Counted from the stretch's first letter, positions 23,380 through 58,244 are shown. The stretch: DNA of 64,000 nucleotides from Heterodontus francisci (GCF_036365525.1 NC_090399.1:54530430-54594429), one strand, 5' to 3'. Notes: generated by a model from the sequence alone, not told the origin. Program-made: numbers and translations.

Positions 23380-23475
23380 GGGACACTGACCCTCTCCCCA
23401 ACCCCTCTCCCCGGGACACTGACCCTCTCCCCAACCCCTCTCCCCAGGACACTGACCCTCCCCCCAACCCTCTCC
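23380..23475 (-). repeat. About 3 inverted units of array 1 forming a fold-back end
   Basis: GGGACACTGACCCTCTCCCCAACCCCTCTCCCC is the reverse complement of the unit. Symmetry centre is TCCC|GGGA at 23379/23380. Confidence 0.95.
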
Positions 23476-23679: not shown

Positions 23680-23918
23680 ACTGAGAGGTGACATACGGCT
23701 GTGATCTGTGGGATGATGGGGGAAACTAGTGGATACTTCCAATATGGCTGGGATAGGAAGGATTTCATGACCTTCGACAAGGAGAACCTGGTGTGGATCA
23801 CCCCCGAACCCTGGGGAGTAATCTTGACGAATAAGGAAATGAACCTGTACCTATGGAAAGAAGACTGGGATGGAACCTGCATCGAGCTGCTGAAAAAATA
23901 CCTGAAGGCTGAGACCTG
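23680..23918 (+). pseudogene. MHC class I-like heavy chain, alpha2 exon (disrupted)
   Basis: VTYGCDLWDDG (23688-23720), then a +1 shift in a G5 run into ETSGYFQYGWDRKDFMTFDKENLVWITPEPWGVILTNK..WKEDWDGTCIELLKKYLK. Both alpha2 cysteines are present. Ends AGACCTG|GTGAGT (R-P plus phase-1 donor, out of frame with the body). No clean acceptor is visible. Confidence 0.9.
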
Positions 23919-27110: not shown

Positions 27111-27336
27111 TTGCTCCTCAAGTGTTTCTTTCCGTGGACAAATGTCAGCTGCTAAACCGGCCAAACTCTCCTGCCTCATCACAGGATTTTACCCTCGTAA
27201 TATCAAAGTTATCCTCCTGAGAAATGGCAAGTCAATTGAGAAAAAAATATACCACTGGCATCCTGCCCAACCAAAATGGCACCTACCAGTTTTGGAGATG
27301 GGTTCAGATCGAGTCTGAGGATGGAGTCACCTATTC
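27111..27336 (+). pseudogene. MHC class I-like alpha3 (Ig C1) exon, 5' part
   Basis: Acceptor TTTTACTCTCAG| with phase 1 gives (V)APQVFLS. A frameshift leads to AKPAKLSCLITGFYPRNIKVILLRNGKSIEK, and a second shift in an A7 run to YTTGILPNQNGTYQFWRWVQIESEDGVTYS. The exon is then cut by a CR1. Confidence 0.9.
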
Positions 27337-29161: not shown

Positions 29162-29211
29162 CTGTCAGTATGAGCAGAGCAGAAACGGAGGAGTGGAGAG
29201 CCGAGACTGGG
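29162..29211 (+). pseudogene. MHC class I-like alpha3 exon, 3' remainder
   Basis: Removing the CR1 restores TAT TCC TGT CAG TAT GAG CAG AGC.. = YSCQYEQSRNGGVESRDW, followed by G|ATAAGA (donor GT mutated to AT). Confidence 0.82.
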
Positions 29212-29351
29212 ATAAGAGGAACAGTGACTGCAAGGGTACTGTCTGTCAGTGATGTTTAAAGATGGTTATAATTACCTCTACTCATTCTGCCTTCCAAAAT
29301 CAATCACTTCACACTTCTCTGCATGAAATTGCATCTGCTGTGTGTCGGTCC

Positions 29352-31022: not shown

Positions 31023-31024
31023 CC

Positions 31025-31510
31025 GTAGTCTGTCTATGTGCTGCTGAAGTCTGATCAAGTCCTCCTCCTTGTTTAATGCATTTCTGAGTTTTGGGTTTAG
31101 CTTTGAATTTACACCCTCTATACTCAAATCCAGGACATTAACATATATCAAAAAGAACAGTGATCCTAATGCAACCCCCTGGGGAACTCCACTGTATACG
31201 TCCCTCCACTCTGAAATACATAAATTCATGAGTCTCTCAGACTCATTGTAAATGCCGTCTCCACGTACCCACTGCCCCACTAATTCCATAGACTTCAATT
31301 TTACTCACAAGTCTATAATTTGGCCCTTTGTCAAGTACCTTTTGAAAGTTCAAATACACAACATCAACAACACTATTCTCATCAATCCTTTCCATTACTT
31401 GATCAAAGAACTCAAATCAAAACTGTCAGACACGATTTGCCTTTAGCAGTTGCCTGTTGGCTGTGGATTTATTAACTCATGTTTTTTAAAGTGATAATTA
31501 ATTTTGTTCT
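31025..31510 (-). mobile_element. Old CR1 RT fragment
   Basis: SEWRDVYSGVPQGVALGSLFFLIYVN in ORF 31008-31298. Confidence 0.8.
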
Positions 31511-31519
31511 GGATTATTT

Positions 31520-31715: not shown

Positions 31716-31719
31716 AGCT

Positions 31720-32075: not shown

Positions 32076-32080
32076 GAAAA

Positions 32081-33112: not shown

Positions 33113-33129
33113 ATCCACGCCATTATTAA

Positions 33130-37500: not shown

Positions 37501-37827
37501 ACTACAGGCCAGTCAGTTTAACTTGGGTGGTGGGAAAACTTCTAGAAAAAATAATCTGGGACAAAATCAATAGTCACATGGACAAATGCAAGTTAATTAA
37601 GGAAAGCCAGCATGGATTCCATAAGGGATAATCATGTTTACCTAACTTGCTGAAGTTTTTTGAGCAGGTAACAGAGAGGGTTGATGAGGGCAATGCTGTT
37701 GATGTGGTGTATTTGGACTTTCAAAAGGCATTTGATACAATGCCACACAACAGACCTGAGAGCAAACTTGTAGCTGATGGAATAAAGGGGACAGTAGCAA
37801 CATGGATATGGAATTGGCTGAGTGACA

Positions 37828-38172
37828 GGCGGCACAGTGGTGCAGTGGTTAGCACTGCAGCCTTACAGCTCCAGCGACCCGGGTTCAGTTCTGGGTACTG
37901 CCTGTGTGGAGTTTGCAAGTTCTCCCTGTGACTGCGTGGGTTTCCGCTGGGTGCTCTGGTTTCCTCCCACAGCCAAAGACTTGCAGGTTGATAGGTAAAT
38001 TGGCCATTGTAAATTGCCCCTAGTGTAGGTAGGTGGTAGGAGAATGGTGGGGATGTGATAGGGAATATGGGATTAATGTAGGATTAGTATAAATGGGTGG
38101 TTGTTGGTCAGCACAGACTCGGTGGGCCGCAGGGCCTGTTTCAGTGCTGTATCTCTAAATAAAATAAATAAA
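37828..38172 (+). mobile_element. V-SINE (HE1-like) with CR1-type 3' tail
   Basis: tRNA head GGCGGCACAGTGGTGCAGTGGTTAGCA, V-domain GTGTGGAGTTTGCAAGTTCTCCCTGTG..GGTTTCCTCCCACAG, tail GGGCCTGTTTCAGTGCTGTATCTCTAAATAAA. Confidence 0.9.
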
Positions 38173-39226
38173 GAATGGTGATTAATGGATGTTTTCTGGC
38201 TGGAGGAAGGTTTGTGATGGAGTTCCCCAGGGATCAGTGTTGGGACCCTTGCTTTTCCTGATATATATTAATGACCTAGACCTTGGTGTACAGGGCACAA
38301 TTTCAAAGTTTGCAGATAATCCAAAACTTGGAAGAATTGTGAACTGTGAGGAGGATGGTGTAGAACTTCAAAAAGACATAGACAAGTTGGTGGTATGGGC
38401 AGACAGGTGGGAGATGAAGTTCAATGCAGGGAAATGTGAGGTGATTCATTTTGGTAAGAAGAACATGGAGAGACAATATAGAATAAAGGATACAATTCTA
38501 AAGGGGGTGCAGGAACAGAGGGACCAAGGTGTGTATGTGCATAAGTTATTAAAGAACATAATAAGAACATAAGAACTAGGAGCAGGAGTAGGCAATTCAG
38601 CCCCTTGAGCCTGCTCCGCCATTCAATACAATTATGGCTGATCTCATCTCGGCCTCAACTCCAGTTTTCTGCCCATTCTTCATAACCCTTCCACCCATTA
38701 CTAATTAAAAATCTGTGTATCTCCTCCTTAAATTTACTCAATGTCCCGGCATCCACCGCACTCTGAGGTCGTGAATTCCACAGACTCACGACCCTTTGAG
38801 AGAAGTAATTTCTCCTCATCTGTTTTAAATTTGCTACCCCTTATCCTAAAACTATGACCTTTTGTTCTAGATTGCCCCACAAGAGGAAACATCCTCTCTA
38901 CGTCTACTTTGTCAATCCCCTTAATCATCTTATAATACCTCAATTAGATCTCATCTCATTCTTCTAAACTCTAGAGAGTAAAGGCCTAAACTGCTCAATC
39001 TCTCTTCACAAGACAAACCCCTCATCACTGGAATCAATCTATTGAACCTCCTCTGAACTGCCTCCAATGCAACTACATCCCTCCTCAAGTAAGGGGACTG
39101 CAACTGTACGCAATACTCCAGGTGCAGTCTCACTAATGCCTTGTACAGTTGCAGAAACACTTCCTTACTTTCATACTCTATTCCTTTAGCAATAAATGCC
39201 AAAATTCTATTTGCCTTCCTTATTAT

Positions 39227-39290
39227 TTCGGCGCAGGCTTGGAGGGCCGAAGGGCCTGTTTCCTGTGCTGTAATTTTCTTTGTTCTTTGT
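39227..39290 (+). mobile_element. About 65-bp CR1 3'-tail-only insertion
   Basis: GGGCCGAAGGGCCTGTTTCCTGTGCTGTAA plus (TTCTTTG)n, flanked by TSD TTATTA. Confidence 0.8.
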
Positions 39291-41260
39291 TTATTACCTG
39301 CTGTACCTGCATACTAATTTTCAGTGAATCATGCACAAGGACACCCAGATCCCTCTGCACCGAAGCACTCTGAAGTTTCTCTCCATTTAGATAATAATTT
39401 GCCTTTCTATTCTTCTAACCAAAATGGATAACCTCACACTTATCCACGTTAAACTCCATCTGCCAACTTTTGTCCCATTCACCTAACCTATCCATATCCA
39501 TTTGTAAATTTCATTTTTTTTTTTTGCAACTCCCACCGATTTTAGTGTCATCTGCAAATTTGGCTATAGTACCTTCTATCCCTGCATCCAACTCATTAAG
39601 ATAGATTGTAAATAGTTGGGGCCCGAGGACCGAACCCTGTGGCACCCCACTAGTTCCATCTTGCCAACCAGAAAAAGATCCATTTATCCTGACTCTGTTT
39701 TCTGTTGGTTAGTCAATCCTCTATCCAAACTAATAAATTGCCCCTAACCCCATGTGATCTTACCTTGTGTATTAACCTTTTGTGCGGCACCTTATCAAAT
39801 GTAGTCTGGAAGTCCAGATATACTACATCGACAGGATCCCCATTCTCCACTTTGCTCGTTACAGCTTCGAAGAACTCGAGCAAATTAATCAAATATGATT
39901 TACCCTTCATAAAACCATGCTGATTCTGATGGATCGCGTTTTGACTTTCTAAATGTCCTATTATTACTTCCTTAATAATGGATTCTAACAATTTCCCAAC
40001 GATAGATGTTAAACTAACTGGTCTGTAGTTTCCTACTTTCTGCCTCCTCCCTTTTTGAATAAGGGCATTATATTAGCTTTTTTCTAATCCACTGGAACCT
40101 TTCCCGCATCCAGGGAATTTTGGAGTATTATAATCAATGGATCCACTATCTCCGCTGCTGCTTCCTTTAAGATCCTAGGATGTAGGCCATCAGGCCCTGG
40201 GGACTTGTCTGCCTTCAATCTCAATAGTTTGCTCAGTATTTTATCTCTCGTGATGATGATTGTTCTAAGTTCCTCTCTTTCTGTAATCTCTGCATTACCT
40301 GTTACTATTGGGATGGTACTAGTATCCTCCACCGTGAAAACTGAGGCAAAATACTGATTTAGTGACTCCGCCATTTCTGTGCTCCCCTCTATTAACTCCC
40401 CAGTCATGTCCTCCAAAGGACCAACATTCACTTTAGCTACTCTCTTCCCTTTAATATACTTATAGAAGCATTTGTTGTCTGTTTTTATATTTTGTGCTAG
40501 TTTTCTTTCATAATTTACCTTTCTCTTTTTATTACTTTTTTTGTAACCCTTTGTAATTTTTAAAAATGTCCCAATCTTCCAGCCTGCCACTGGCCTTTGT
40601 AATATGGTATGCCTTAGTTTTTGTCTTTATGATATCCTTAACTTCCTTGCTTAGCCATGGATGTTTTTTTCCCCCTCTTAGAATCTTTCTTCCTCTCTGG
40701 AATATATTTTAGTTGGGAGGATTTGAATATCTCCTTAAACATCTGCCACTGCTCATCAACTGTCCTACCTTTTAGTCTTGCTGCCCAGTCCACTCGGGCC
40801 AAATCTGTCCTCATGCTTATGTAATTACCTTTGTTTAACTCCAGAACACTAGTGTGGGACTCCAGCTTCTCGCCCTCAAACTGAATTTGAAATTCTATGC
40901 TATGATCATTCAGAAAGAGCGAGACCAAGGCGGACCTCTGAGGAAACAGGCACCAGTGAGCAGGAGTTCCAGCAGTTTAAAAGCGACATCCTCACACACA
41001 CTCTCACAGGGACAGTGAGAGAGTTCCACGACTGACGTCACAGTTCAGAAAGTGATGCATTGTAAGGGGAGGCAGCTGATTGGCAAATAGGAACGGGTGG
41101 GTATTTCTACCCTTTTTTACTACTTTCAAAAGCTGAAGTAAAATTAAAGGTAGGGAATTTAGATTGTAGTAGGTAGTGTTTGGAGTAGAATAAGGTTCCT
41201 ATCGTAATTAGTATTCTAAATTAAAGGGAGTAACTAAGGAGCTTAATCTAAAGCTAAGTC

Positions 41261-42190
41261 ATGGCAGGAGAGCTCAGCCCTGTGGCAAGCTCCTCCTGCG
41301 CTCTGTGGGAAATCAGGGACACTGGAAGTGTCCCTGGTGACCATGTGTGCAGGAAGTGTGTCCAGCTGCAGCTACTAGCTGACCACATTGGAGCTGCGGG
41401 TGGATTCACTGTGGAGCATCCGTGATGCTGAGGATGTCGTGGATAGCATGTTTAGCGAGGTGGTCACACCGCAGGTAATGGCTGCAGAGGCATAAAAGAG
41501 ATGGGTGACCACCAGGATGAGTAGTAGACGCAAGCAGGTAATGCAAGGTTTCCCTGTGGCCATCCCTCTCTCAAACAGATATACCGCTTTGGATACTGTT
41601 GGGGGGGATGGCCTCCCAGGGGAAAGCAGCAACAGCCAAGTTGGTGGCACCACGGAGGGCTCTGCTGCACAGGAGGGAGTGAAAAATAGTGGGAGAGCCA
41701 TACTGATAGGGGATTCAATCGTAAAGGGAACAGACAGGCGTTTCTGTGGCCACAAACATGACTCCAGGATGGTATGTTGCCTCCCTGGTGCTAGGGTCAA
41801 GGATGTCTCAGAGCGGCTGCAGGACATTCTGAAGGGACAGGATGAACAATCAGAGGTCGTGGTACACATTAGTACCAACGACATAGGTAGAAAGAGGGAT
41901 GGGGTCCTGCAACAAGAATTTAGGGAGCTAGGTAGCAGTTTGAAAAGCAGCACCTCAAAGGTTGTAATCTCTGGATTACTCCCAGTGCCATGTGCTAGTG
42001 AGTATAGGAATAGGAGGATAGAGCAGATGAATGCGTGGCTGAGGAGGTGGCGCAAGAGGGAGGGCTTTAGTTTCCTGGATCACTGGGTCTGTTTCTGGCC
42101 ATGATGGGACCTGTACAAGTTGGACGGGTTGCACCTGAACCAGAACAGGATAAACATCCTTGCTGGGAGGTTTGTTAGTGCTGTTGGTGG
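41261..42190 (+). pseudogene. CR1 ORF1p (Zn-finger/coiled coil plus SGNH esterase), disrupted
   Basis: LIGDSIVKG, CLPGARVKDV, VVHISTNDIG, VISGLLPVP. Contains stops and frameshifts. Confidence 0.85.
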
Positions 42191-43740
42191 GGGGGTGGGG
42201 GGATGGGATCCGGAGTGGAGGTACAGTAGGGGGTGATGCACAGTCAAATATAGAAGAGAAACTGAGTCAGTCAGGAAGGCAGAGCAAGTATAGACCTGTT
42301 AAGGCACAAGTGAAAAATGCAAGGCTGGATTGCATCTATTTTAATGCAAGGAGTCTTACTAGTAAGGCAGATGAATTGAGGGCATTGATTAGCACATGGC
42401 ATTATGATATTATTGCTATCACAGAGACATGGTTGAGGGAAGGGCTGGACTGGCAGCTCAATATTCCAGGGTATAGAATCTTCAGTCATGACAGGGGAGG
42501 GAGTAAAAGAGGAGGTGGCATTGCATTGTTGATCAAGGAATCAGTTACTGCAGTAAGGAAGGATGATATCTTAGAAGGTTCCTCAAATGAGGCCATATGG
42601 GTAGAACTTAAAAAAAGGGGGCAATTACTTTGCTGGGAGTGTACTACAGGCCTCCAAACAGTCAGGGAGAGATAGAGGAGCAGATATGTAGGCAAATCTC
42701 AGAGAGGTGTAAAAATAATAGTGTAATAATAGTAGGAGATTTCAACTTCCCCAATATTAACTGGGATAGTCTTAGTGCAAAAGGCTTAAAGGGGGCAGAA
42801 TTCCTAAAATGCATACAGGAGAGCTTTTTGAGCCAGTACGGAGATAGTCCTACAAGAGAAGGGAATGAAGCCGGACAAGTGGTAGAAGTGTCAGTGGGGG
42901 AACATTTCGGGGATAGTGACCATAACTCTAAGATTTAAGGTAGTTATGGAAAAGGATAAAGATGGATCGGAAATTAAGATACTGAATTGGGGGAAGGCCG
43001 ATTTTAAGATAATAAAACAGGATCTGGCCAAAGTGAACTGGGAGCAGTTACTTGTAGGAAAGTCTACATTAGACCAGTGGGAGTCATTCAAACAGGAAAT
43101 AGTGAGAGTTCAGAGCCAACCTGTACCCGTTAAGGTGAAGGGTAGGACCCTGGATGTCAAGGGATATAGAGGATTGGATAAAAAAAAAAAGGCTTATGAC
43201 AGATTCAGTATGCTGAAAACAGTGGAGGCACGAGAGGAGGATAGAAAGCATTGGGGGGAGGGGATGTGGGGTACTTAAAAAGGTAATTAGGAGAGCGAAG
43301 AGGAGACACGAAGAAACACTGGCGGGCGAGATAAAGGAAAATCCTAAGGCATTTTATAAGTATATTAAGGGCAAGAGAATAACCAGGGAAAGAGTAGGGT
43401 CCATTAGGGACCAAAGTAGCAATGTGTGTGTGGAGCTGGAGGACATAGGTGAGCTTTTAAATGATTACTTTTCATCTGTGTTCACTATGGAGAAGGACGA
43501 TGTTGATGTCGAGAGCAGAGAGGGGGATTGTGAAATACTTGAACATATTAGCATTGAAAGGGAGGAAGCATTAGATGTTTTAGTGGCCCAGATGAGATGT
43601 ATCCCAGGCTGTTATGTGAGGCAAGGGAGGAGATTGCAGGGGCTCTGACACAAATTGTCAAATCCTCTCTGGCCACAGGAGAGGTACCAGAGGATTGGAA
43701 GACAGCGAATGTGGTACCATTATTTAAGAAGGGTAGCAGG

Positions 43741-45155
43741 GAGGTTGAGAGAAAGCAAGGAATTATAGACCAGTCAGCCCGACGTCTGTAGTGGGGAAAA
43801 TTCTAGAGTTCTTTATCAAAGATTTTATAGCACAGCACTTGGAGAACAGTGGTAGAATCGGACAGAGTCAGCATGGATTTACGAAAGGGAAATCATGCTT
43901 GTCAAATATACTAGAATTCTTCAAGGATGTAACTCGTTGAGTTGATGAGGGGGAGCCAGTGGATGTGGTTTATTTGGACTTTCAGAAGGCTTTCGACAAA
44001 ATCCCACATAAGAGATTAGCGTGTAAAATTAAAGCGCATGGGATTGGGGGTAGTGTATTGTGATGGATAGAAAATTGGTTGGCAGACAGGAAATGAAGAG
44101 TAGGGTTAAATGGGCCTTTTTCCGAATGGCAGGCAGTGACTAGTGGGGTACCGCAGGGATCGGTGCTAGGACCCCAGCTATTCACAATATATATTAATGA
44201 TTTAGATGAGGGAACTAAATGTAATATTTCCAAATTTGCAGATGACACAAAACTAGGTGGGAGGGTGAGTTGTGAGGAGGATGCAGAGAGGCTTCAGGGT
44301 GACTTGGACAAGTTGAGTGAGTGGGCTAATGCATAGCAGATGCAGTATAATGTGGATAAATGTGAGGTTATCCACTTTGGTAGCAAAAACAGGAAGGCAG
44401 ATTATCTGAACGGTGATAAACTGAGAGAGGGGAATATGCAGCGAGACCTGGGTGTTCTCGTACACCAACCGCTGAAGGTAAGCATGCAGGTGCAACAGGC
44501 GGTAAAAAGAAAAATGGTATGTTGACCTTCATAGCGAGACGATTCGAGTACAGGAGCAGGGATGTCTTGCTGCAATTATACAGGGCCTTGGTGAGGCCAC
44601 AGCTGGAATAGTGTGTGCAGTTTTGGTCTCCTTATCTGAGGAAGGATGTTTTTGCTATAGAGGGAGTGCAGCGAAGGTTTATCAGACTGATTGCTGGGAT
44701 GGTGGGACTGACGTATGAGGAGAGATTGAGTCGGTTAGGATTATATTCGCTGGAGTTCAGAAGAGTGAGGGGGGATCTCATAGAAACCTATAAAATTCTA
44801 ACAGGACTTGACAGGGTAGATGCAGGAAGGATGTTCCTGATGGTGGGGGAGTCCAGAACCAGGGGTCATAATCTAAGGATACGAAGTAAACCTTTCAGGA
44901 CTGAGATGAGGAGAAATTTCTTCATCCAGAGTGGTGAGCCTGTGGAATTCGCTACCATAGAAAGCAGGTGAGGCCAAAACATTATTTGTTTTCAAGAAGG
45001 AGTTAGATATAACTCTTGGGTCTAAAGGGATAAAAGGGTATGGGGCGAAAGCGGGAACAGGTTACTGAGTTGGATGATCAGCCATGATCATAATGAATGG
45101 CGGAGCAGGCCCGAAGGGCCGAATGGCCTACTCCTGCTCCTATCTTCTCTGTTTG
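43741..45155 (+). mobile_element. CR1 LINE 'I', 5'-truncated, nested in H
   Basis: Second RT copy with its own tail GGCCGAATGGCCTACTCCTGCTCCTATCTTCTCTGTTTG. Host FKKGSR|DKPGNYRPV rejoins when it is removed. Confidence 0.88.
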
Positions 45156-48100
45156 TAAACCAGGTAATTACAGGCCGGTGAGTCTAACATCAGTGGTTGG
45201 GAAACTATTGGAAAAATTCTGAGGGACAGGATTAATCTCCACTTGGAAAGGCAGGGATTAATCAGGGATAGTCAGCATGGCTTTGTCAGGGGAGATTGTG
45301 TCTAACTAACTTGATTGAATTTTTTGAGGCAGTGACTAGAGGTGTAGATGAGGGTAAAGCAGTTAATGTAGTCTACATTGACTTCAGTAAGGCTTTTGAT
45401 AAGGTCCCGCATGGGACATTGGTTAAAAAGGTAAGAGCCCTTGGGATCCAGGGCAATTTGGCAAATTGGATCCAAAATTGGCTTAGTGGCAGGAGGCAGA
45501 GGGTAATGGTCGAGGGTTGTTTTTGTGAGTGGAAGCCTGTGACCAGTGGCGTACCTCAGGGACCAGTGCTGGAACACTTACTGTTTGTAGTGTACATGAA
45601 TGATTCAGACGTTAATATAGAAGGTATGATCAGTAAGTTCGCAGATGACAGAAAATTGGTGGTGTCGTAAATAGTGAGGAGGAAAGCCTTCGATTACAGG
45701 ATGATATAGATGGGGCTGTTAAGATGCGCAGAGCTGTGGCAAATGGAATTTAATCCTGAGAAGTGTGAGGTGATGCATTTTGGGAGGACTAACAAGGCAA
45801 GGGAATATACAATGGATGGTAGAACTATAGGAAGTACAGAGGGTCAGAGGGACCTTGGTGTACTTGTCCATAGATCATTGAAGGTAGCAGCACAGGTAGA
45901 TAAGGTGGTTAGGAAGGCATATGGGATACTTGCCTTTATTAGCCGAGGCATAGAATATAAGAGCGGGGAAGTTATGATGGAGCTGTATAAAACGCTAGTT
46001 CGGCCACAGCTGGAGTACTGTGTACAGTTCTGGGCACCACACTATAGGAAGGATGTGATTGCACTGGAGAGGGTGCAGAGGAGATTCACCAGGATATTGC
46101 CTGGGCTGGAGCATTTCAGCTATGAAGAGAGACTAAAAAGGCTAGCATTGTTTTCCTTAGAGCAGAGAAGGCTAAGGGGAGATATGATTGAGGTATACAA
46201 AATTATGAGGGGCATTGATAGGTTAGATAGGAAGAAACATTTTCCCTTAACAAAGGGGTCAATAACCAGGGGGCATAGATTTAAGGTAAGGGGCAGGAGG
46301 TTTAGAGGGGAGTTGAGGAAATAATTTTCACCCAGAGGATAGTTGGAATCTGGAATGCACTGCCTGCAGAGGTGGTAGAGACAGGAACCTTCACAACATT
46401 TAAGAAGAATTTAGATGAACACTTGAAACGCCATAGCATACAAGGCTACGGGCCAAGTGCTGGAAAATGGGTTTAGAATAGTTAGGTGCTTGATGGCCAG
46501 CACAGATATGATGAGTCGAAGGGCCTGTTTCTGTGCTGTATCACTCTATGACTCTTACCTGGAGGATCCTTAACTATGAGATTAATTAATCCCACCTCAT
46601 TACACAATACCAAATCTAGAATAGCCTGCTCCTTGGTTGGTTCCACAATATATTGCTCCAAAAAACAAATATATTCAATGAACTCTCCCTCGAGGCTACC
46701 CTTGTCAATTTGATTAATCCAGTCTATATGCATATTAAAATCACCCATGATTATTGCTGTACCTTTCTTACAAGCCTCCAGTATTTCCTGGTTTATACTG
46801 TGCCCCACTGTGGAACTACTGTTTGGGGATCTATAGATTACTCCCACCAGGGACTTCTTTCCCTTGCTATTTCTTATTTCTACTCAGACTGATTCTACGC
46901 CTTGATCTCCAGTACCTATATCGTTTCTCACTACAGCACTGATCTCTTCCTTCACTAACAAAGCTACACCACCTCCTTTTCCTTCCTGCCTATCCTTTTG
47001 AAATACTGAGTACCCTTGAATATTCAATTACCAAACCTGGTTTCCCTGCATCCACATCTCAGTAATCGCCACCGAATCATACCCATTCGTTTCTATTTGC
47101 ACTGTTAACTCATTTATTTTATTCCGAATGCTTCGTGCATTCTGATACAAAGTTTGTTCTATTCTCAAATTTCCCTACTTTTGTACGATTCCTTGGTGCA
47201 ATATGACGTTCACACGTTCTATCCCTTCCTTTTATTTTCTGGTAACAATGAGCCTCATCATTAACCTGCACTCCTACCTTCTCCTTTAACTTTGACTTCC
47301 TGTTTTTCCATGCAACTGAACCCTCCCCCCAACTATTTAGTTTAAAGCCCTATCTACAGCCCTAGTTATGCAATTCGTCAGGACTCTGGTCCCAGCATGA
47401 TTCAGGTGGAGCCCGTCCCATCGGAACAGCTCCCTCCTTCCCCAGTACTGGTGCCAATGTCCCACGAATTCAAACCCATTTCTCCCACACCAATCTTTGA
47501 GCCACACATTTACCTCTTTAATCTTACTGACCCTGTGTCAATTTGCTCGTGGCTCAGGTAGTAATCCGGAGATTATTACCTTTTTGGTTCTGCTTTTTAA
47601 TTTAGCCCCTAGCTACTCATATTCCCTCAGCAGAACCTCTATCCTTGTTCTACCTATATCCTTGGTACCTACGTGGACCATGACAACTGGATCTTTCCCC
47701 TCCCACTCCAAGTTCCTCTGCAGCTCAGATGAGATATCCTGAACCCTGGCACCAGGTAGGCAACACAGCCTTCGGGACTCTCGATCCTAGCCGCAGAGAA
47801 CAGTGTCTATGCCCCTAACTATACTATCCCCGATTACGACTACATTTCTCTTTTCTCCCCCCACTTGAATGGCTCCCTGTACCATGGTGCTGCGGTCAGT
47901 TTGCTCACCCTCCCTGCAGTCCCTGCTCTCGTCCACACAGGGAGCAAGAGTCTCGAACCCGTTGGACAAGGACAAGGGTTGAGGCTCCTGCAACACTACC
48001 TCCTGGATCCCTCTACCTGTCTCACGCATAGTCACACCCTCCTGTCCCTGACCACTGGCCAAATTCAAGGTACTTAATCTAAGGGGTGTGACTGTCTCCT

Positions 48101-49864
48101 GAAACACAGCATCCAGGTATCTCTCCCTCTCCCCCTCAGACTCCAGCTCATCAACTCTGAGCCGGAGTTCCTCGAGCAGCCAACACTTGCTACAGATGTG
48201 GTCACCAGGAACCACAATGGGGTCCACCAGCTCCCACATCATGCAGGAACAACACATCGCCTGGCCCTGCATCTCTATTTTATATAATTAGATTTTAATG
48301 TTTTTTTTAAATTTCCCACTGGGCTTTAGTTCTTTAATCCACTTTAGTTTTTATACTAATAAATTGATATTAGATTTCAATTTAAATTAAAAGCTTACCT
48401 GAATACTCACCCCTAGCTGCTCTCTGTTTCCCTGCCCTCACTGTTGAATGCGACGTCACTCTGATGCCACTTTTCCATTTTTTCTCAGCTCCGCTCCCAC
48501 TCCTCGGGCTGTGCTCTCTGTCTCTCTGACTGTAGTTTGGTGTGCTTTTTGAACCCTCCGCTCCTCCCTCTGTCCCTCCGATTGTGGTTTGGTGCGCTTT
48601 TTGAACCCTCTGCTCCTCGGGCTGTTCTCCTCTCTCTAAAGGTGGCAGGACAAGTTGAGAGAGCAGTTCATAAAGCATACAGTATCCTGGGCTTTATTTA
48701 TAGGGACAGAGAGTACAAGAGCAAGGAAGTTATGTTGAATTTGTATAAGACACAAGTTCAGCCTCAGCTGGAATATTGCATCCAATTCTGGGCATTATAC
48801 TTGAGGAAAGACGTGAGGGCATTGGAGAGAGCACAGAAGAGATACACAAGAATGGTTCCAGAGATGAGGAATTTCAGCTATGAAGATAGATTGGAGAAGT
48901 TAGGACTGTTTTCCTCGAAGAGAAGGCTGAGAGGTGATTTGATAGAGGTATTCAAAATCATGAGGGGTCTGGCCAAAGTAGATACAGACACACTGTTCTC
49001 ACTCGTAAAAGGAAGAAGAACGAGAGGGCACAGATTTAAAGTATTTGGTAAGAGAAGCAAAAGTGACATGAGGAAAAAATTTTTCACGTAGCGAGTGGTT
49101 AAGGTCTGGAATTCGCTGCCTGAGAATGTGGTGGAGGCAGGTTCAATTGAAGCATTCAAAAGGGAACTAGACAGTTATATAAAAAGGAAGAATGTTCAGG
49201 GTTATGGAGAGAAGGCAGGGGAATGGAACTGAGGGAATTTCTCTTCCAGGGAGCCAGTGCGGACACGATGGGCCGAATGGCCTCCTTCTGCACTAGGAAA
49301 TGGTCCTGGTGGGACAGATACTTGGACATGTTTAAGGGTCTGTAAGCCCTGGTTCTTTCAACATGCACTCAAACTCACTAGAGTCAGGTCAATAGGGTCT
49401 GTCTGTCAGGGATACAGTTTGGAATCTATACCTGGATCCTGTGTTTGCTTCTTGACCCTGATTTACTGGAACCATTGATCTCAATTTCCCCTTTCCCATT
49501 CTGCTCTGACACTGCAGTGTCAGCTCTAAATGACTATGTTAGTGTCTTTAATTGTTACAGTTCCTAGAAGGATGTTAGGTGTTTAAATTCTTGCCTTACG
49601 CTCTCTCTCAACATGTTCCTTTTCTTTATATCCAAAGTATTGCATTATATTTAATATTGATTCAAAGGAGTCATGGGGCAAGCAAGCCCTTGTTCTGCTT
49701 TTCCTCGAGATTCAGGAGGTTGAACAGTTTTGTGAAAGAGATTTTCATCACCCTGTGACAGTTAATCCTGATGTTTTATTGCAGACATTTTGCAGTAGAG
49801 GGAGAAAGTATCGGGTGTGACCACACCCACTGCACTGAATGTAGACTCTCCATTTTATAGCTAA

Positions 49865-50100
49865 ACAATATACTTTATTTATACAAATTGTAACAGTTCA
49901 AATATAACATTGCATAAAATGCAGAACTGTTCAATTTCTTTCAGTACAGTACATGACACTCTGAGGTGCCTCCATGCATCTTTTCAAAACCTCTCCGGCC
50001 ACCAGCTTTTACCGCGGTTACAGCCCCTCCATATACTGTGGCAGTTACGTCTAGACTGGTCATTTCCCATTGAGCCTTTCAGACAGCTGTCCCATGCAGC
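49865..50100 (-). mobile_element. Probable Tx1/L1-like LINE 3' fragment
   Basis: Minus strand reads ..KAQW.MT.. like Tx1 ORF2 ends, followed by AATAAA (49874-49879). Degenerate. Confidence 0.45.
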
Positions 50101-50179
50101 ATTCACCATCAGTAGTTTTATTTGATCAATCTCTGCAGCCTATTATTACCTCCATAACATCAGCGACTGTCAATTATTC

Positions 50180-50312
50180 AAAAGAAAATACTGCAGATGC
50201 TAGAAATCTGAAAAAGAAAACAGAAAATGCTGGAAATACTCAGCAGCTCTGGCAGCATCTGTGGGAAGAGAAATAACAGTTCCTGTTTCAGTTCTGAGAC
50301 CTTTCATCAGAG
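50180..50312 (-). mobile_element. Penelope pLTR fragment with decayed hammerhead
   Basis: Reverse complement of the CAGATGCTGCCAGA..CTGAGTATTTCCAGCATTT terminus. CTGATGA..GAAAC present. Confidence 0.8.
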
Positions 50313-50534
50313 CAGGGTTATTCACTTCACCGCTGCAGCTCGTGTCTTTGACAGACTGTCATGAAATTCAGCATTCACTGAATGAGAAATCTATACAAAC
50401 GTCAAGTGAAAAAGGAGCGAGCCAATGATAAAACTCAGTACAGTCCTTCCCGATACCCTGAGCCCAGTTACTGCTGTTTATAAACTGGTTTGGTGCTAGT
50501 TCAGCTGCTTTTAAACTCGTGAGCTACTTCAACT

Positions 50535-50581
50535 TCAAGCCAAGAATGCCAAGTTCAAAGATGATTCTCCTCTTTCAGCAG
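50535..50581 (-). CDS. Terminal cytoplasmic-tail exon of MHC class I-like gene
   Basis: TCTTTTCTTTTCACAG| phase 1 gives xAERGESSLNLAFLA*. Resembles the ..ESSSNSSATA* end recalled for shark class I chains. Lies downstream of the - strand TM exon. Confidence 0.65.
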
Positions 50582-50679
50582 CTGTGAAAAGAAAAGATTT
50601 CGGTCAAACAGCCATTTTACGACAGGGTGAATGTTTTCTGTACAGACACAGAGGCAGAGCACATGCGAGACGGACAGAC

Positions 50680-53600
50680 AGAATTATTACAGCGCAGGAG
50701 GCCGTTCAGCTCATCGTGTCTGCATTGGCTTTCCGAATGAGCAATTCACTTAGTGCCATTCCCCCGCCTTCTCCCCATAACCCTGCACATTCTTCCTTTT
50801 CATAGAACAGTCTAATTCCCTTTGAATGCTTCAGTTGAACCTGCCTCCACCGCATTCTCAGGCAGCGCATTCCAGACCTTAACCACTCGCTGTGTGAAAA
50901 AGTTTTCCTCATGTCACTTTTGCTTCTTTAGCCAATTACTTTAAATCTGTGCCCTCTCGTTCTCGATCCTGTCACGAGCGGGAACAGTTTCTCTCTATCT
51001 ACTCTGTCCAGATCCATGATTTTGAATACCTCTATCAAATCACCTCTCAGCCTTCTCTTCTACAAGGAAAACAGTCCTAACTTCTCCACTCTATCATCAT
51101 AACTGATGTTCCTCATCCCTGGAACCATTCTTGTGAATCTTTTCTGTACTCTCTCCAATGCCTTCACATACTTCCTAAAGTGCAGCACCCAGAACTGGAT
51201 ACAATACTCCAGCTGAGTCCGAACTGGAGTCTTATACAAGTACAACACAACCTCCTTGCTCTTGTACTCTATGTCCCTATTAATAAAGCCCAGGATACTG
51301 TATGCTTCATTAACCGCTCTCTCAACCTGTCTTGCCACCTTCAATGACTGAGCACATGTACACACACAGGTCCCCCTGCTCCTGTACCCCCTTTAGAATT
51401 GTACCCTTTATTTTATATTGTCTCTTCATGTTCTTTCCATCAAAATGAATCACTTCACACTTCTCTGGATTAAACTTCATCTGCCACCTGTCCATCTATT
51501 CCACTAACTTGTCTATGTCCTTTTGAAGTTCTACACTATCCTCCTCCTCAGTTCACAATGCTTCTAAGTTTTGTATCATCTGCAAACTTTGAAATTGTGC
51601 CCTATACACCAAGGTCTAGGTCATTAGTATATATCAGAAAGAGCAAGGGTCCCAACACTGACCCCTGGGGAACTCCACTACAAATCTTCCTCCAGCCTGA
51701 AAAACATCCATTAACCACTATTCTTTGTTTCTTGACACTCAGCCAATTCTGTATCCATGTTGCTACCATCCCTTTTATTCCATGAGCTATAAATCTTTGC
51801 TCCCAAGTCTGTTGTGTGGCACTGTAGCAAATGCCTTTTCGAAGTCCATGTATACTACAGCAACTGCATTGCCCTCATTAAACCTCTCTGTTACATACGA
51901 CCATATGAATTAGGAGCAGAAGTAGACCATTTGGCCCCTCTAACCTGCTCCTCCATTCAATAAGATCATGACTGAACTGTTTGTGTGTCGAGTTTCACAC
52001 TCCCATCTGGCACCGATAAACTTTGATTCCCTTGCCCAACAAGAATCTATCTACCTCCGCCTTAAAAATATTCAATGACCCTGCCTCCACCTTCTGAGGC
52101 AGAGTTCCAAAGTCTCACAACCCTAGGAGAAAAAAGTTCTCTTCATCTCTAGCCTAAAAGGGCATCCCCTAATTTTAAAACAGTGCCCCCTAGTTCTGGA
52201 CTCACCCACAAGAGGAAACATCCTTTCCACATCCACCTTGTCAAGGCCGTTCAGGATCTTATAAACTTCAATCAAGTCTCCCCTCACTCTTCTAAACTCC
52301 AGTGAAAACAAGCCCAGTCTGTCCAATCTTCCCTCATAAGACAACCCACTCATTCCGGGTATCAATCTAGTAAACCTCCTCTGAATGGTCTCCAACACAT
52401 TTACATCCGTCCTTAAATAAGGAGACCAAAACTGCACACAGTATTCGAGATGTGGTCTCACCAATGCCCTGTATAAATGAAGCATAACATTTTCAATTCC
52501 TCTCATAATAAAGGATAGCATTCCATTAGCCTTCTTCATTACTTGCTGTACCTATATACTAACTTTTTGTGATTCATGCACTAGAACATCTAGATCCCTC
52601 TGCACCTCGGAATTCTGCAGTCGCTCTCTGTTTAAGTAATACCTCGTCAAAAAACTCTTGCAAGTTAGTTAAACATGATTTTTCATTAAGAAATCCATGC
52701 TGGCTTTCGTTAATTAACCCAAATTTGTCCACGTGAGTATTAATTTTGTCCCGAATTATTCTTTCTAGAAGTTTCCCCACCACTGAAGTTAAAGTGACTG
52801 CCCTGTAGTTGCTCGGCTTATCTTTATACCCTTTTCTGAACAAGGGTACAAACATTTGCAAATCTGCAGTCCTCTGGCACCACCCCTGACTCTGAGGAAG
52901 ACTGCAAAATTGTAGCCAGTGCCTCCACAATTTCCACTCTCACTTTCCTTGGATGCATCTCATCCGGCCATGGTGCTTTATCCACATTAAGTGCAGACAG
53001 CCAATCGAATACTTCCTCTTTATCAATTTTAAATCCATCTAGTGTCGGACTTACCTCCTCTTTCAACATTACCTGGGTTGAATCTTTTTCTTGGTAAAAA
53101 CAGATGCAAAGTATTCATTTAATACCTAAGCTACGCCCTCTGCCTCCATGTGTAAATCTGCTTTCTGGTCCCTAATCGGCTCCACTCCTCCTTTTATCAC
53201 ACTTTTAATATTTATATGCTGATAGAAAACTTTGGTATTTCCTTTAATGCTAGCTGCCAGTCTCTTTTCATGCTCTCTCTTAGTTTCTTCACTTCCCCTC
53301 TGGACCTTCTATATTCAGCCTGGTTCTCAATAGTACTTTCTACCTGGCATCAGTCATAAACACACTTTTTCTTCTTTATCTTAATCTCTACCTCTTTTGT
53401 CATCCAGGGAACTCTAGCTCTGTTCACCCTAACTTTCCCCTTTGAGGGAACATATCTTGACTGTGCCCGAGCAATCTCTTCTTTCAATGTAGCTCATTGC
53501 TCAGCTACTGTTTTTCCTGCCAACTTGTGACTCCAACTTATTCACCTTGCTCCATTCTTACCCCATTGAAGTTGGCCTTCCCCCAGTTAATTATTCTTAC

Positions 53601-53872
53601 CCTGGATTGCGCTTTATCCTTTTCCAAAGACAGCCTAAACCTTATGATATAATGTTCACTATCCCCGAAATGCTGTCCTGCAGATACTCGATCCACTTGG
53701 CACACCTCATTCCCAAGAACCAGGTCGAGCAATGCCTCCATTCTCGTAGGACTGCTGAAGAAGAATTTCCTAAACAGACTCTAGGAACTCTTGCCCCTCA
53801 CCACCCTTTACATTACGACAATCCAAGACTATGGTAGGATAATTAAAGTCCCCCATTATGATTACCATTATA
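50680..53872 (-). mobile_element. CR1 LINE 'J' (same subfamily as F), 5'-truncated in APE
   Basis: IMGDFNYP at about 53840-53860, RT ORFs, tail at 50680-50720. Long near-identical stretches with F. Confidence 0.9.
51895..52639 (-). mobile_element. CR1 3' fragment 'K' nested in J
   Basis: Own tail at 51895. LYRALVRPHLEYCVQFWSP. Host CTCTGTTAC|CTCGTC rejoins with TAC shared. Confidence 0.87.
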
Positions 53873-53880
53873 ACTAAATA

Positions 53881-53885
53881 GAGAC

Positions 53886-53920
<35 letters not shown>

Positions 53921-53932
53921 CAGAGACACACA
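53881..53932 (+). repeat. (GA)n/(GACA) microsatellite
   Basis: Read directly. Confidence 0.9.
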
Positions 53933-53964
53933 CTTGTACTATTTCAACACTTAGGTTTTGTTGC

Positions 53965-56900
53965 CTCCCCTCATTCCCCATAATCAGTCCCTGTAATCAT
54001 CGCTCCCCTCATTCCCCATAATCAGTCCCTGCAATCGCCACCCCCAGTCCCCCCACTCCCTGCAATCGCCACCCCCAGTCCCCCCACTCCCTGCAATCGC
54101 CACCCCCAGTCCCCCCACTCCCTGCAATCGCCACCCCCAGTCCCCCCACTCCCTGCAATCGCCACCCCCAGTCCCCCCACTCCCTGCAATCGCCACCCCC
54201 AGTCCCCCCACTCCCTGCACTCAACCCCCCCAGTCCTCCCACTCCCGGTAATCGCCCACACCCCCCAGTCCCCCCACTCCCTGCAATCGCCACCCCCCCA
54301 GTCCCCCCACTCCCTGCAATCGCCACCCCCCCAGTCCCCCCACTCCCTGCAATCGCCACCCCCCCAGTCCCCCCACTCCCTGCAATCGCCACCCCCAGTC
54401 CCCCCACTCCCTGCAATCGCCACCCCCAGTCCCCCCACTCCCTGCAATCGCCACCCCCAGTCCCCCCACTCCCTGCAATCGCCACCCCCAGTCCCCCCAC
54501 TCCCTGCAATCGCCACCCCCAGTCCCCCCACTCCCTGCAATCGCCACCCCCAGTCCCCCCACTCCCTGCAATCGCCACGGCCAGTCCCCTCACTCCCTGC
54601 AATCGCACCCCCCCAGTCCCCCCACTCCCGGTAATCGCCCCCCCCCTCCACAGTCCCCCCACTCCCGGTAATCGCCACCCCCCCCAGTCCCCCCACTCCC
54701 GGTAATCGCCACCCGCCCCAGTCCCCCCACTCCCTGTAATCGACACACCCCACCCCCGCAGTCACCCCACTCCCTGTAATCGACACACCCCACACCCCCA
54801 GTCCCCCCACTCCCTGCACTCAACCCCGCCAGTCCCCACTCCCTGCGCTCATCCCCGCCAGTACCCCCACCCCCTGTAATCGCCGCCCCCAGCCCCCCCA
54901 CCTCCTGTAATCGCCGCCCCCAGTCCCCCCACCCCCTGTAATCGCCGCCCCCAGTCCCCCCCACTCCCTGCGCTCAACCCCGCCAGTCCCCCCACTCCCT
55001 GCGCTCAACACCGCCAGTCCCCCCACTCCCTGCGCTCAACCCCGCCAGTCCCCCCACTCCCTGCGCTCAACCCCGCCAGTCCCCCCACTCCCTGCGCTCA
55101 ACCCCGCCAGTCCCCCCACCCCCTGTAATCGCCGCCCCCAGTCCCCCCACCCCCTGTAATCGCCGCCCCCAGTCCCCCCACTCCCTGCGCTCAACCCCGC
55201 CAGTCCCCCCACTCCCTGCGCTCAACCCCGCCAGTCCCCCCACTACCTGCGCTCAACCCCGCCAGTCCCCCCACTACCTGCGCTCTACCCCGCCAGTCCC
55301 CCCACTCCCTGCGCTCAACCCCGCCAGTCCCCCCACTCCCTGCGCTCAACCCCGCCAGTCCCCCCACTCCCTGCGCTCAACCCCGCCAGTCCCCCCACTC
55401 CCTGCGCTCAACCCCGCCAGTCCCCCCACTCCCTGCGCTCAACCCCGCCAGTCCCCCCACTCCCTGCGCTCAACCCCGCCAGTCCCCCCACTCCCTGCGC
55501 TCAACCCCGCCAGTCCCCCCACTCCCTGCGCTCTACCCCGCCAGTCCCCCCACTCCCTGCGCTCTACCCCTCCAGTCCCCCCACTCCCTGCGCTCTACCC
55601 CGCCAGTCCCCCCACTCCCTGCGCTCTACCCCGCCAGTCCCCCCACTCCCTGCGCTCTACCCCGCCAGTCCCCCCACTCCCTGCGCTCTACCCCGCCAGT
55701 CCCCCCACTCCCTGCGCTCTACCCCGCCAGTCCCCCCACTCCCTGCGCTCTACCCCGCCAGTCCCCCCACTCCCTGCGCTCTACCCCGCCAGTCCCCCCA
55801 CTCCCTGCGCTCTACCCCGCCAGTCCCCCCACTCCCTGCGCTCTACCCCGCCAGTCCCCCCACTCCCTGCGCTCTACCCCGCCAGTCCCCCCACTCCCTG
55901 CGCTCTACCCCGCCAGTCCCCCCACTCCCTGCGCTCTACCCCGCCAGTCCCCCCACTCCCTGCGCTCTACCCCGCCAGTCCCCCCACTCCCTGCGCTCTA
56001 CCCCGCCAGTCCCCCCACTCCCTGCGCTCTACCCCGCCAGTCCCCCCACTCCCTGCGCTCTACCCCGCCAGTCCCCCCACTCCCTGCGCTCTACCCCGCC
56101 AGTCCCCCCACTCCCTGCGCTCTACCCCGCCAGTCCCCCCACTCCCTGCGCTCTACCCCGCCAGTCCCCCCACTCCCTGCGCTCTACCCCGCCAGTCCCC
56201 CCACTCCCTGCGCTCTACCCCGCCAGTCCCCCCACTCCCTGCGCTCTACCCCGCCAGTCCCCCCACTCCCTGCGCTCTACCCCGCCAGTCCCCCCACTCC
56301 CTGCGCTCTACCCCGCCAGTCCCCCCACTCCCTGCGCTCTACCCCGCCAGTCCCCCCACTCCCTGCGCTCTACCCCGCCAGTCCCCCCACTCCCTGCGCT
56401 CTACCCCGCCAGTCCCCCCACTCCCTGCGCTCTACCCCGCCAGTCCCCCCACTCCCTGCGCTCTACCCCGCCAGTCCCCCCACTCCCTGCGCTCTACCCC
56501 GCCAGTCCCCCCACTCCCTGCGCTCTACCCCGCCAGTCCCCCCACTCCCTGCGCTCTACCCCGCCAGTCCCCCCACTCCCTGCGCTCTACCCCGCCAGTC
56601 CCCCCACTCCCTGCGCTCTACCCCGCCAGTCCCCCCACTCCCTGCGCTCTACCCCGCCAGTCCCCCCACTCCCTGCGCTCTACCCCGCCAGTCCCCCCAC
56701 TCCCTGCGCTCTACCCCGCCAGTCCCCCCACTCCCTGCGCTCTACCCCGCCAGTCCCCTCACTCCCTGCGCTCTACCCCGCCAGTCCCCTCACTCCCTGC
56801 GCTCTACCCCGCCAGTCCCCTCACTCCCTGCGCTCTACCCCGCCAGTCCCCTCACTCCCTGCGCTCTACCCCGCCAGTCCCCTCACTCCCTGCGCTCTAC

Positions 56901-57862
56901 CCCGCCAGTCCCCTCACTCCCTGCGCTCTACCCCGCCAGTCCCCTCACTCCCTGCGCTCTACCCCGCCAGTCCCCTCACTCCCTGCGCTCTCCCCCGCCA
57001 GTCCCCTCACTCCCTGCGCTCTCCCCCGCCAGTCCCCTCACTCCCTGCGCTCTCCCCCGCCAGTCCCCTCACTCCCTGCGCTCTCCCCCGCCAGTCCCCT
57101 CACTCCCTGCGCTCTCCCCCGCCAGTCCCCTCACTCCCTGCGCTCTCCCCCGCCAGTCCCCTCACTCCCTGCGCTCTCCCCCGCCAGTCCCCTCACTCCC
57201 TGCGCTCTCCCCCGCCAGTCCCCTCACTCCCTGCGCTCTCCCCCGCCAGTCCCCTCACTCCCTGCGCTCTACCCCGCCAGTCCCCTCACTCCCTGCGCTC
57301 TACCCCGCCAGTCCCCCCACTCCCTGCGCTCTACCCCGCCAGTCCCCCCACTCCCTGCGCTCTACCCCGCCAGTCCCCTCACTCCCTGCGCTCTACCCCG
57401 CCAGTCCCCCCACTCCCTGCGCTCTACCCCGCCAGTCCCCTCACTCCCTGCGCTCTACCCCGCCAGTCCCCTCACTCCCTGCGCTCTACCCCGCCAGTCC
57501 CCTCACTCCCTGCGCTCTACCCCGCCAGTCCCCTCACTCCCTGCGCTCAACCATCCCCCACCCCCAATGTCCCCTCACTCTCTGCGCTGAACCCCGCCAG
57601 TCCCCTCACTCCCTGCGCTCAACCCCGCCAGTCCCCTCAATCCCTGCGCTCAACCCCGCCAGTCCCCTCACTCCCTGCGCTCAACCCCGCCAGTCCCCTC
57701 ACTCCCTGCGCTCAACCATCCCCCACCCCCTATGTCCCCTCACTCCCTGCGCTGAACCCCGCCAGTCCCCTCACTCCCTGCGCTCAACCCCGCCAGTCCC
57801 CTCACTCCCTGTACTCAACCACCCCCCACCCCCAATGTCCCCTCACTCCCTGTAATCACCCC
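53965..57862 (-). repeat. Minisatellite array 3, 31-bp unit (+ strand CCCCGCCAGTCCCCCCACTCCCTGCGCTCTA), G-rich on -
   Basis: Read directly. About 120 units arranged in variant-specific blocks. Confidence 0.98.
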
Positions 57863-58133
57863 CGCCTACAGACGGGCCCCCAGTCCTCTTGCCGCCAGCC
57901 CCCACCTCCCCTTACGGGCACCCGGTCCTCTTGCACCTCCCCTCTCCCCTCCCTAATGACGGGCACCGGTCCCCTCACCCCCCCTTACAGGCCCTCTGCC
58001 ACCTCTCCCTTTGCATCACTGGACTGTATGCAAATTCCCTCATGTGCAGGGGAAGTCTCTAATGTTACAACACATGCAGAACATTCAAAACTGCTCATAC
58101 TCGCGAGTGACAGACCCTGCCCTCATTTCTTAC

Positions 58134-58244
58134 CTCCTCTCTTCCACACAACAGAACAAACGACATGAATAACCAGAGCGATTGCAGCAAAAAGCCCAAC
58201 AATCAATCCGAGTTTTGATCTTGGAGTCGTTCGGACCATCTTGT
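58134..58244 (-). CDS. Connecting-peptide/transmembrane exon of a type I membrane protein, most likely MHC class I-like
   Basis: CTCTTCATTG(C)12ACAG| 111 nt, phase 1-1, (D)KMVRTTPRSKLGLIVGLFAAIALVIHVVCSVVWKRG |GTAAGA. Hydrophobic span followed by a WKR stop-transfer. Confidence 0.85.

What the first reader, a model, noticed from the sequence alone, without database searches (positions are those of the whole stretch)
50535..58244. The missing TM and cytoplasmic exons are present on the opposite strand: an inversion-broken gene or a tail-to-tail paralogue
Seen: I found no TM exon on + after alpha3. On - there is a clean 111-nt phase 1-1 TM exon (58244-58134) and a terminal exon (50581-50535) in the correct order. 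The + strand alpha3 end (TGG G|) would splice in phase to |AC AAG, giving ..RDW-DKMVRTTP. No alpha3 exon is visible on - up to 64000. Inference: either one gene whose 3' half was flipped by an inversion of more than 8 kb, or a second class I-like gene entering from the right. The Penelope at 29352-31022 lacks an evident TSD, unlike three other copies, and is a candidate breakpoint.
Basis: partly seen in the sequence, partly recalled or inferred. Interest (0 to 1): 0.75.

Follow-up and report, generated by a model that had tools for sequence, protein, structure and literature searches.

The report
Two shark MHC genes, tail-to-tail
The membrane-anchor and tail exons on the opposite strand belong to a second, transcribed and already annotated shark MHC class I-like gene that faces a broken fragment of a sister gene, so this is an ordinary gene-cluster arrangement and not one gene flipped by an inversion.

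Summary
A 111-nt phase 1-1 TM exon (58244-58134) and a last exon (50581, stop 50535) lie on the minus strand, facing plus-strand alpha2/alpha3 exons. The inversion reading fails. RNA-like contigs from 3 of 3 such runs laid cover exactly this exon and splice it to the last exon. Upstream they join an alpha3 end that differs from the plus-strand alpha3 at 6 of 30 bases and is absent from the window. A RefSeq horn shark model (XP_067865201.1) ends with this alpha3, TM and tail; its alpha3 matches the window's at only 60 of 90 residues. The plus-strand exons are a dead paralogue: frameshifts, a 1.8-kb CR1 inside alpha3, donor AT instead of GT, and no alpha1 or TM. The Penelope at 29352 sits inside a colinear CR1, so it is no breakpoint. 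Both genes fall in the 'UAA-2'/MHC-Ia-like clade. Still open: the RefSeq model starts with 70 LINE-derived residues instead of leader/alpha1/alpha2, and a satellite fold-back lies at 23380. Ordinary; interest low.

The parts
58134..58244 (-). TM exon (111 nt, phase 1-1) of the transcribed minus-strand class I-like gene; His inside the TM, short stalk
   Evidence: covered exactly in X5, X6, X9; 34 of 34 aligned residues identical to P0095
50535..50581 (-). Coding part of the last (cytoplasmic) exon; TM spliced straight onto it
   Evidence: (loose end equals window 50552-50581)
49860..50534 (-). 3' UTR with AATAAA at 49879; holds a short Penelope 3' piece (50180-50317)
   Evidence: RNA-like runs X5-X7 hold 0.82-0.84 of the words of 49860-50600; the 3' end is inferred from the signal
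50696..53871 (-). 5'-truncated CR1 LINE in the TM-to-last-exon intron (with a nested element about 51895-52640)
53975..57990 (.). GC-rich minisatellite in the TM-to-last-exon intron
23680..23918 (+). Decayed alpha2 exon of the plus-strand paralogue: frameshift in a G run, frameshift near the 3' end, acceptor likely lost; left edge approximate
   Evidence: 6lup shark class I, E 6.4e-11; PF00129 E 3.6e-5
27111..27336 (+). 5' part of decayed alpha3 exon, two compensating frameshifts in A runs
   Evidence: C1-set E 7.7e-7
27337..29158 (-). CR1 LINE inserted in alpha3, 3-base TTC duplication
29159..29211 (+). 3' part of alpha3; the following donor reads AT (29212-29213)
29266..31519 (-). CR1 fragment hosting the Penelope; colinear on both sides of it
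29352..31022 (+). 5'-truncated Penelope (406-aa frame, weak GIY-YIG match); plain insertion, not a breakpoint
35530..49286 (+). One CR1 (to 38554, resuming at 48639) with a 10-kb stack of nested elements; start approximate
23377..23382 (.). Fold-back junction at CCCGGG: the satellite changes strand here; 5' limit of the plus-strand fragment
   Evidence: (431 G-strand cores left, 3 C-strand cores right)
1..23379 (-). 23-kb satellite, reverse complement of the short satellite in front of alpha2; no unique sequence or exon inside

Best explanation
The minus-strand TM and last exons are the 3' end of a second shark class I-like gene that is transcribed and spliced to its own alpha3, which likely lies more than 5.7 kb upstream beyond the right edge of the window; the plus-strand alpha2 and alpha3 are a dead fragment of a sister gene facing it tail-to-tail. 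Shown: RNA joins the TM exon to the last exon and to an alpha3 that is not the plus-strand one, and the plus-strand exons carry inactivating lesions. Inferred: both arose by duplication within the 'UAA-2'/MHC-Ia-like clade. The plus copy likely lost alpha1 at the satellite fold-back (23380), and its own TM, tail and UTR by a deletion whose junction lies in 29212-29265, 31520-35530 or 49287-49860. If full length, the minus gene would work as a beta2-microglobulin-bound class I heavy chain with a short tyrosine-less tail. I put about 60:40 on it being a full gene whose leader/alpha1/alpha2 are missing or misplaced in the public assembly, rather than a natural 5'-truncated transcript.
For:: contigs of X5, X6 (same sample as DNA run X3) and X9 (organism B) lie on 58134-58245 only, with 0, 0 and 2 other letters. 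All three carry the same 5' loose end, and their 3' loose ends read into the last exon (X9 with one changed letter); the 5' loose end has no match within 3 mismatches in the window; its only match within 11 is the plus alpha3 end, 6 of 30 different (GNGGVMILDW against RNGGVESRDW). P0095 = XP_067865201.1 (Heterodontus francisci) has that alpha3 end followed by the window's TM and tail (50 of 51 columns, the miss being the X I put at the junction); its alpha3 matches the plus alpha3 at 60 of 90. One gene cannot be 0% diverged in TM and a third diverged in alpha3; plus alpha3 and P0095 share a 15-row clade, support 100/99; 18 white shark MHC-Ib rows are 10 plus and 8 minus, with plus-then-minus neighbours 6-9 kb apart, so convergent class I pairs are common.
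Against: The partner alpha3 was not seen in DNA next to the window: no genome is held, and the position of the RefSeq model could not be read. An identical second copy of TM and tail elsewhere would collapse in contigs and could be the expressed one. 'RNA' is the tool's guess for X5, X6, X9 (the exact AG/GT-bounded cover argues for spliced RNA); X5, X6 and X3 are one sample; only 4 of 24 listed runs were laid. P0095 has no alpha1/alpha2, so a working heavy chain is not shown. No remnant of a plus-strand TM or UTR was found, so the deletion is inferred. The white shark rows are MHC-Ib genes, not this clade.
Confidence: 0.92

Rival explanations
1. One gene whose 3' half (TM, tail, UTR) was flipped by an inversion of more than 8 kb; the RNA would then come from an intact allele or an identical copy elsewhere.
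For: Both halves are of one clade and would join in phase; each half lacks exactly what the other has inside the window.
Against: The TM is spliced to another alpha3 in two organisms; 6 of 30 bases and 30 of 90 residues differ between the two alpha3 while TM is identical. The Penelope is no breakpoint. No repeat cut at one side was found continuing at the other inside the window, and the intron pieces next to alpha3 and TM show no homology above shuffles.
Confidence: 0.03
2. The plus-strand alpha2-alpha3 block is itself the inverted piece: a template-switch (inverted duplication with deletion) or a mis-join dropped a paralogue fragment, reversed, into a minus-strand array. This still needs two genes, so it is a variant of how the best explanation came about.
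For: Both neighbours of the block (23-kb satellite, minus gene) read in minus sense; fold-back at a CCCGGG palindrome.
Against: A single simple inversion does not give this order; the fold-back arms differ at 12 of 99 bases and the 70-base right arm has no exact copy on the left, so it is not a fresh hairpin read. A deletion between head-to-head paralogues, or an inversion inside the satellite, fits as well.
Confidence: 0.3
3. Assembly artefact: unrelated pieces joined in the wrong orientation across satellites or LINEs, so the tail-to-tail adjacency is not real.
For: Very large satellites and a fold-back in the window; three of the frameshifts sit in homopolymer runs; several horn shark class I models lie on short contigs of 114-275 kb.
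Against: Nested repeats are colinear across 29266-31519 and 35530-49286; the CR1 in alpha3 has a duplication at its ends; the DNA contig agrees at the TM exon. It would not restore the one-gene reading.
Confidence: 0.06

Closest known systems
XP_067865201.1, 'antigen-presenting glycoprotein CD1d2-like' of Heterodontus francisci (P0095, 214 aa)
   Same: TM and tail are letter for letter the window's minus-strand exons; alpha3 end equals the RNA loose end.
   Different: Its alpha3 is not in the window. Its first 70 residues are CR1 ORF2-like (61% to window 36885-37091, E 1e-21). The CD1 name is not borne out: its alpha3 groups with CQYE-type shark class I (no CD1 or UFA row was in that tree).
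Shark 'UAA-2' / MHC-Ia-like genes (Gcirratum_UAA-2 in supplement file 10 of PMC10751288; horn shark XP_067883152.1 and its paralogues; Squalus AAN77874.1; Heptranchias XP_067834115.1)
   Same: Long alpha3 N-terminus and CQYE-type end, LIVG TM, GESS-type last exon; multi-copy (by eye, 63, 65, 68).
   Different: Plus copy is dead; minus gene has a shorter stalk, a His in the TM (1 of 37 TM-bearing rows) and no middle tyrosine-bearing tail exon (18 of 37 rows also lack tail Tyr, several as skipped isoforms).
Elasmobranch class I clusters of mixed orientation (PMC10751288)
   Same: Neighbouring class I genes on opposite strands, partial models, several Ia-like genes near the classical gene.
   Different: The flanking zinc-finger, TAP and PSMB genes that the paper names are not visible in this window.

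Membership tests
MHC class I heavy chain (minus-strand gene) | Ig C1-set alpha3 spliced in phase to a TM exon and cytoplasmic exon | tested here: met
   P0095 C1-set E 3.2e-15
MHC class I heavy chain (minus-strand gene) | Leader and alpha1/alpha2 groove domains | tested here: inconclusive
   Absent from RefSeq model P0095, which starts with a CR1-like stretch. The X5 contig runs 396 nt upstream of TM, about 120 nt past a 276-nt alpha3, but those letters were not shown.
MHC class I heavy chain (minus-strand gene) | Binding of beta2-microglobulin and surface expression | not testable with these tools
   No experiment; no complex prediction run
MHC class I heavy chain (plus-strand fragment) | alpha2 and alpha3 homology | tested here: met
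MHC class I heavy chain (plus-strand fragment) | Intact reading frame, splice sites and full exon set | tested here: not met
   Frameshifts, CR1 in alpha3, AT donor, no alpha1, TM or tail: pseudogene fragment
Shark 'UAA-2' / MHC-Ia-like clade | alpha3 groups with CQYE-type sequences, apart from UAA/UBA-type alpha3 | tested here: met
   15 of 22 rows, support 100/99, midpoint root, long-branch warning for Mobula not re-run; 3 rows (P0060, P0096, P0012) left out as isoforms or partial. Link to the name 'UAA-2' is by eye: the Stegostoma row P0098 shares its alpha3 end with Gcirratum_UAA-2.
Classical class Ia (UAA) | Conserved peptide-end residues, polymorphism, linkage to TAP/PSMB8/9 | not testable with these tools
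   The minus gene's groove is unseen; no flanking genome
CD1-like (UFA/UGA), as the RefSeq name suggests | CD1-type hydrophobic groove and UFA/UGA-type alpha3 | tested here: inconclusive
   No groove to test; alpha3 falls with the CQYE clade and by eye does not resemble the UFA/UGA rows, but these were not in the tree
Inversion breakpoint at the Penelope 29352-31022 | Flanks non-colinear or changing strand | tested here: not met
   Left flank aligns to reference CR1 51413-51510, right flank resumes at 51497-51679, same strand

The most novel reading that the evidence does not exclude
The minus-strand gene is a naturally groove-less class I derivative: a CR1 LINE supplies its first exon, which is spliced to an intact alpha3, a His-bearing TM and a tyrosine-less tail. 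It is well transcribed in two related sharks and makes a membrane Ig-domain protein that acts as a beta2-microglobulin or CD8 decoy.
Probability: 0.06. Interest if true: 0.55.

Novelty: already known. Interest (0 to 1): 0.15.

Why it matters
Little as it stands: convergent paralogues and pseudogene fragments are what birth-and-death evolution leaves in class I clusters, and the expressed gene already has a RefSeq model. Two small uses. The model's CD1d2-like name and LINE-derived start look wrong or at least need checking. The window also shows how MHC-Ia-like copies in a shark decay (satellite fold-back, LINE insertion); PMC10751288 mentions these genes only as unpublished data. It would matter more if the LINE-started, groove-less form were the real transcript.

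Tried and rejected
Whole-genome search: no G000 held, so the alpha3 right of the window was not seen. Word-index protein search with alpha2 found nothing among 5 candidates; the full phmmer search gave 57 hits. Penelope as breakpoint: rejected. Inverted CR1 pair 36422-38554/48639-49286 (+) and 53871-50696 (-), 82-87% alike: rejected as an inversion substrate, since recombination between them would flip only the last exon, which is in order with TM. CR1 (+) at 59481-60423 as the other half of the CR1 (-) ending at 31519: rejected, both cover the same part of the element. Remnant of the middle cytoplasmic exon in the TM-to-last-exon intron: none; 88 of 100 shuffled peptides scored as well. Weak alpha2-like hit at 62764-62627 (-), E 0.097, and a 19-of-20 match of the alpha3 end at 60574 (+): taken as chance. 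Intron homology between the two genes: of 11 pairs, 1 beat all 60 shuffles (a 50-base piece, see Noticed in passing) and 2 were matched by 1 and 2 of 60 shuffles. Contig depths (621, 99, 112) were not used to rank expression. Earlier scan notes: 4 look-ups, nothing. No structure or complex prediction was run. Papers seen: PMC10751288 passages, section 5 and supplement parts 1, 97, 98 and searched rows (30 of 45 'MHC-Ib' places); PMC12562908, PMC1513397, PMC3021195, PMC2532750, PMC4364491 passages only; the UEA paper PMC8454915 is not held, and it or its supplements may describe these genes. Searches for 'Heterodontus + MHC class I + genome + UAA' and for LINE-exonised class I (listing only) showed no paper on this locus; subscription journals are not covered.

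Full report
What was checked. The window is shark-like DNA rich in CR1, Penelope and satellites; no genome is held for it. On the minus strand 58244-58134 is a 111-nt AG/GT-bounded phase 1-1 exon with an open hydrophobic frame. A last exon starts at 50581, stops at 50535 and has AATAAA at 49879. No alpha3 is visible on minus up to 64000, and no TM, tail or UTR copy on plus.

The plus-strand exons. An alpha2 remnant at about 23680-23918 hits shark class I in the PDB (6lup, E 6.4e-11) and PF00129. It has a frameshift in a G run, another near its end, and likely no acceptor. Alpha3 runs 27111-27336 and 29159-29211, split by a 1.8-kb minus-strand CR1 with a 3-base duplication. It has two compensating frameshifts, and its donor reads AT. 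No alpha1 is in the window: 1-23379 is pure satellite. This is a pseudogene fragment.

The deciding test. Runs holding the last exon and UTR include RNA-like runs of the same sample as the best DNA holders (0.82-0.84 of words in X5-X7). Laid on 57995-58400, contigs of X5, X6 and X9 (organism B) cover only 58134-58245, with 0, 0 and 2 other letters. Their 3' loose end is the last exon (window 50552-50581; one letter changed in X9), so TM is spliced straight to it. Their 5' loose end is the same in all three and is an alpha3 end, but not the window's: no match within 3 mismatches, and 6 of 30 differences to 29181-29210. A search with a relative then returned P0095 = XP_067865201.1 of Heterodontus francisci. 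It carries that alpha3 end followed by the window's TM and tail letter for letter, while its alpha3 matches the plus alpha3 at 60 of 90 residues. So the TM exon has its own alpha3 outside the window, and the window is most likely horn shark or a very close relative (inference from the named record). Limits: RNA status is the tool's guess, three of the four runs laid are one sample, and an identical duplicate elsewhere cannot be excluded.

The proposed breakpoint. A second CR1 is colinear across 35530-49286 around a nested stack. Any junction between the two genes must therefore lie in 29212-29265, 31520-35530 or 49287-49860 (inference).

Family. Both alpha3 domains fall in a 15-row clade (support 100/99) apart from UAA/UBA-type alpha3, with horn shark, Heptranchias, Pristiophorus, Scyliorhinus, Chiloscyllium, Stegostoma and Squalus AAN77874.1 sequences (22 rows, 3 isoform or partial rows left out, midpoint root, long-branch warning not re-run). 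By eye this is the 'Gcirratum_UAA-2' type in supplement file 10 of PMC10751288. That paper reports extra MHC-Ia-like genes near the classical gene, varying in number by species (section 5); equating these with UAA-2 is my inference. In its white shark table 18 MHC-Ib rows are 10 plus and 8 minus, with plus-then-minus neighbours 6.2, 6.3 and 9.1 kb apart. The plus alpha3 has an end branch of 0.37 against a median of 0.16, as expected for decay.

How it most likely works. Shown: the minus gene is transcribed and spliced alpha3-TM-last exon. Inferred: if complete, it is a class Ia-like heavy chain that pairs with beta2-microglobulin (established knowledge of the family). It lacks the middle tail exon that carries a tyrosine in many relatives. 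In mouse the exon 6 tyrosine controls endocytic traffic (PMC2532750, passages), so slower internalisation would be predicted. But 18 of 37 TM-bearing rows also lack a tail Tyr, several as skipped isoforms, so this is not special. The TM His is found in 1 of 37 rows, and no change at that codon is listed for organism B; it may mark relaxed selection or a partner site, untested. Against a working heavy chain: the RefSeq model has no leader, alpha1 or alpha2 and begins with 70 residues 61% identical to CR1 ORF2, with no hydrophobic signal by inspection. The X5 contig runs about 120 nt past alpha3, but those letters were not shown. I judge a faulty or incomplete model somewhat likelier (60:40) than a natural truncated transcript.

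The fold-back. At 23379/23380 the satellite in front of alpha2 changes strand across CCCGGG: 431 G-strand cores to the left, 3 C-strand cores to the right. The arms differ at 12 of 99 bases, so it is no exact hairpin. It is the one clear strand-switch junction in the window and bounds the dead fragment on its 5' side. Deletion between head-to-head paralogues, inverted duplication, an inversion inside the satellite, or a mis-join all fit; sequence left of the window decides.

Verdict. Observation confirmed; tail-to-tail paralogue supported (0.92); inversion-broken single gene refuted (0.03). The expressed gene is already annotated and the arrangement is ordinary for a class I cluster. Interest 0.15.

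Noticed in passing
window 23377-23382: Fold-back of a 23-kb satellite at a CCCGGG palindrome just upstream of alpha2; arms differ at 12 of 99 bases; alpha1 is missing. A true strand-switch junction or a mis-join.
   Followed up: partly
P0095 (XP_067865201.1) residues 1-70: The RefSeq model of the minus gene begins with CR1 ORF2-like residues in place of leader/alpha1/alpha2 and is named CD1d2-like although its alpha3 is UAA-2-like.
   Followed up: partly
window 58134-58244 (-): His inside the TM helix and a stalk about 5 residues shorter than in most relatives; no change at the His codon is listed for organism B.
   Followed up: partly
window 35417-35466 vs 49816-49865: 50-base, 74% same-strand match to the stretch just past the minus gene's polyA signal; 0 of 60 shuffles reached it. 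Possibly a remnant of another 3' end or an old repeat.
   Followed up: partly
window about 31520: A minus-strand CR1 RT fragment abuts what reads as a plus-strand CR1 endonuclease fragment head to head (the latter by eye and a 58-aa frame); candidate for the junction between the two genes or a 5'-inverted insertion.
   Followed up: partly
window 1-23379: The satellite has higher-order repeat periods, most often about 3113-3126 and 1567-1600 bases.
   Followed up: no
window 38555-48638: Ten-kilobase stack of several CR1 elements in both orientations nested inside one CR1.
   Followed up: partly
window 53872-53975 (-): A long CT tract ending in AG sits right at the 5' end of the intronic CR1, like an orphan acceptor; no middle cytoplasmic exon remnant was found.
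   Followed up: partly
window 29353-30570: The Penelope keeps a 406-aa open frame, so it is probably a young insertion.
   Followed up: no
P0087 (Squalus AAN77874.1): A dogfish class I with classical-looking peptide-end residues (by eye) has the same CQY-type alpha3, so this alpha3 type is not confined to non-classical genes.
   Followed up: no
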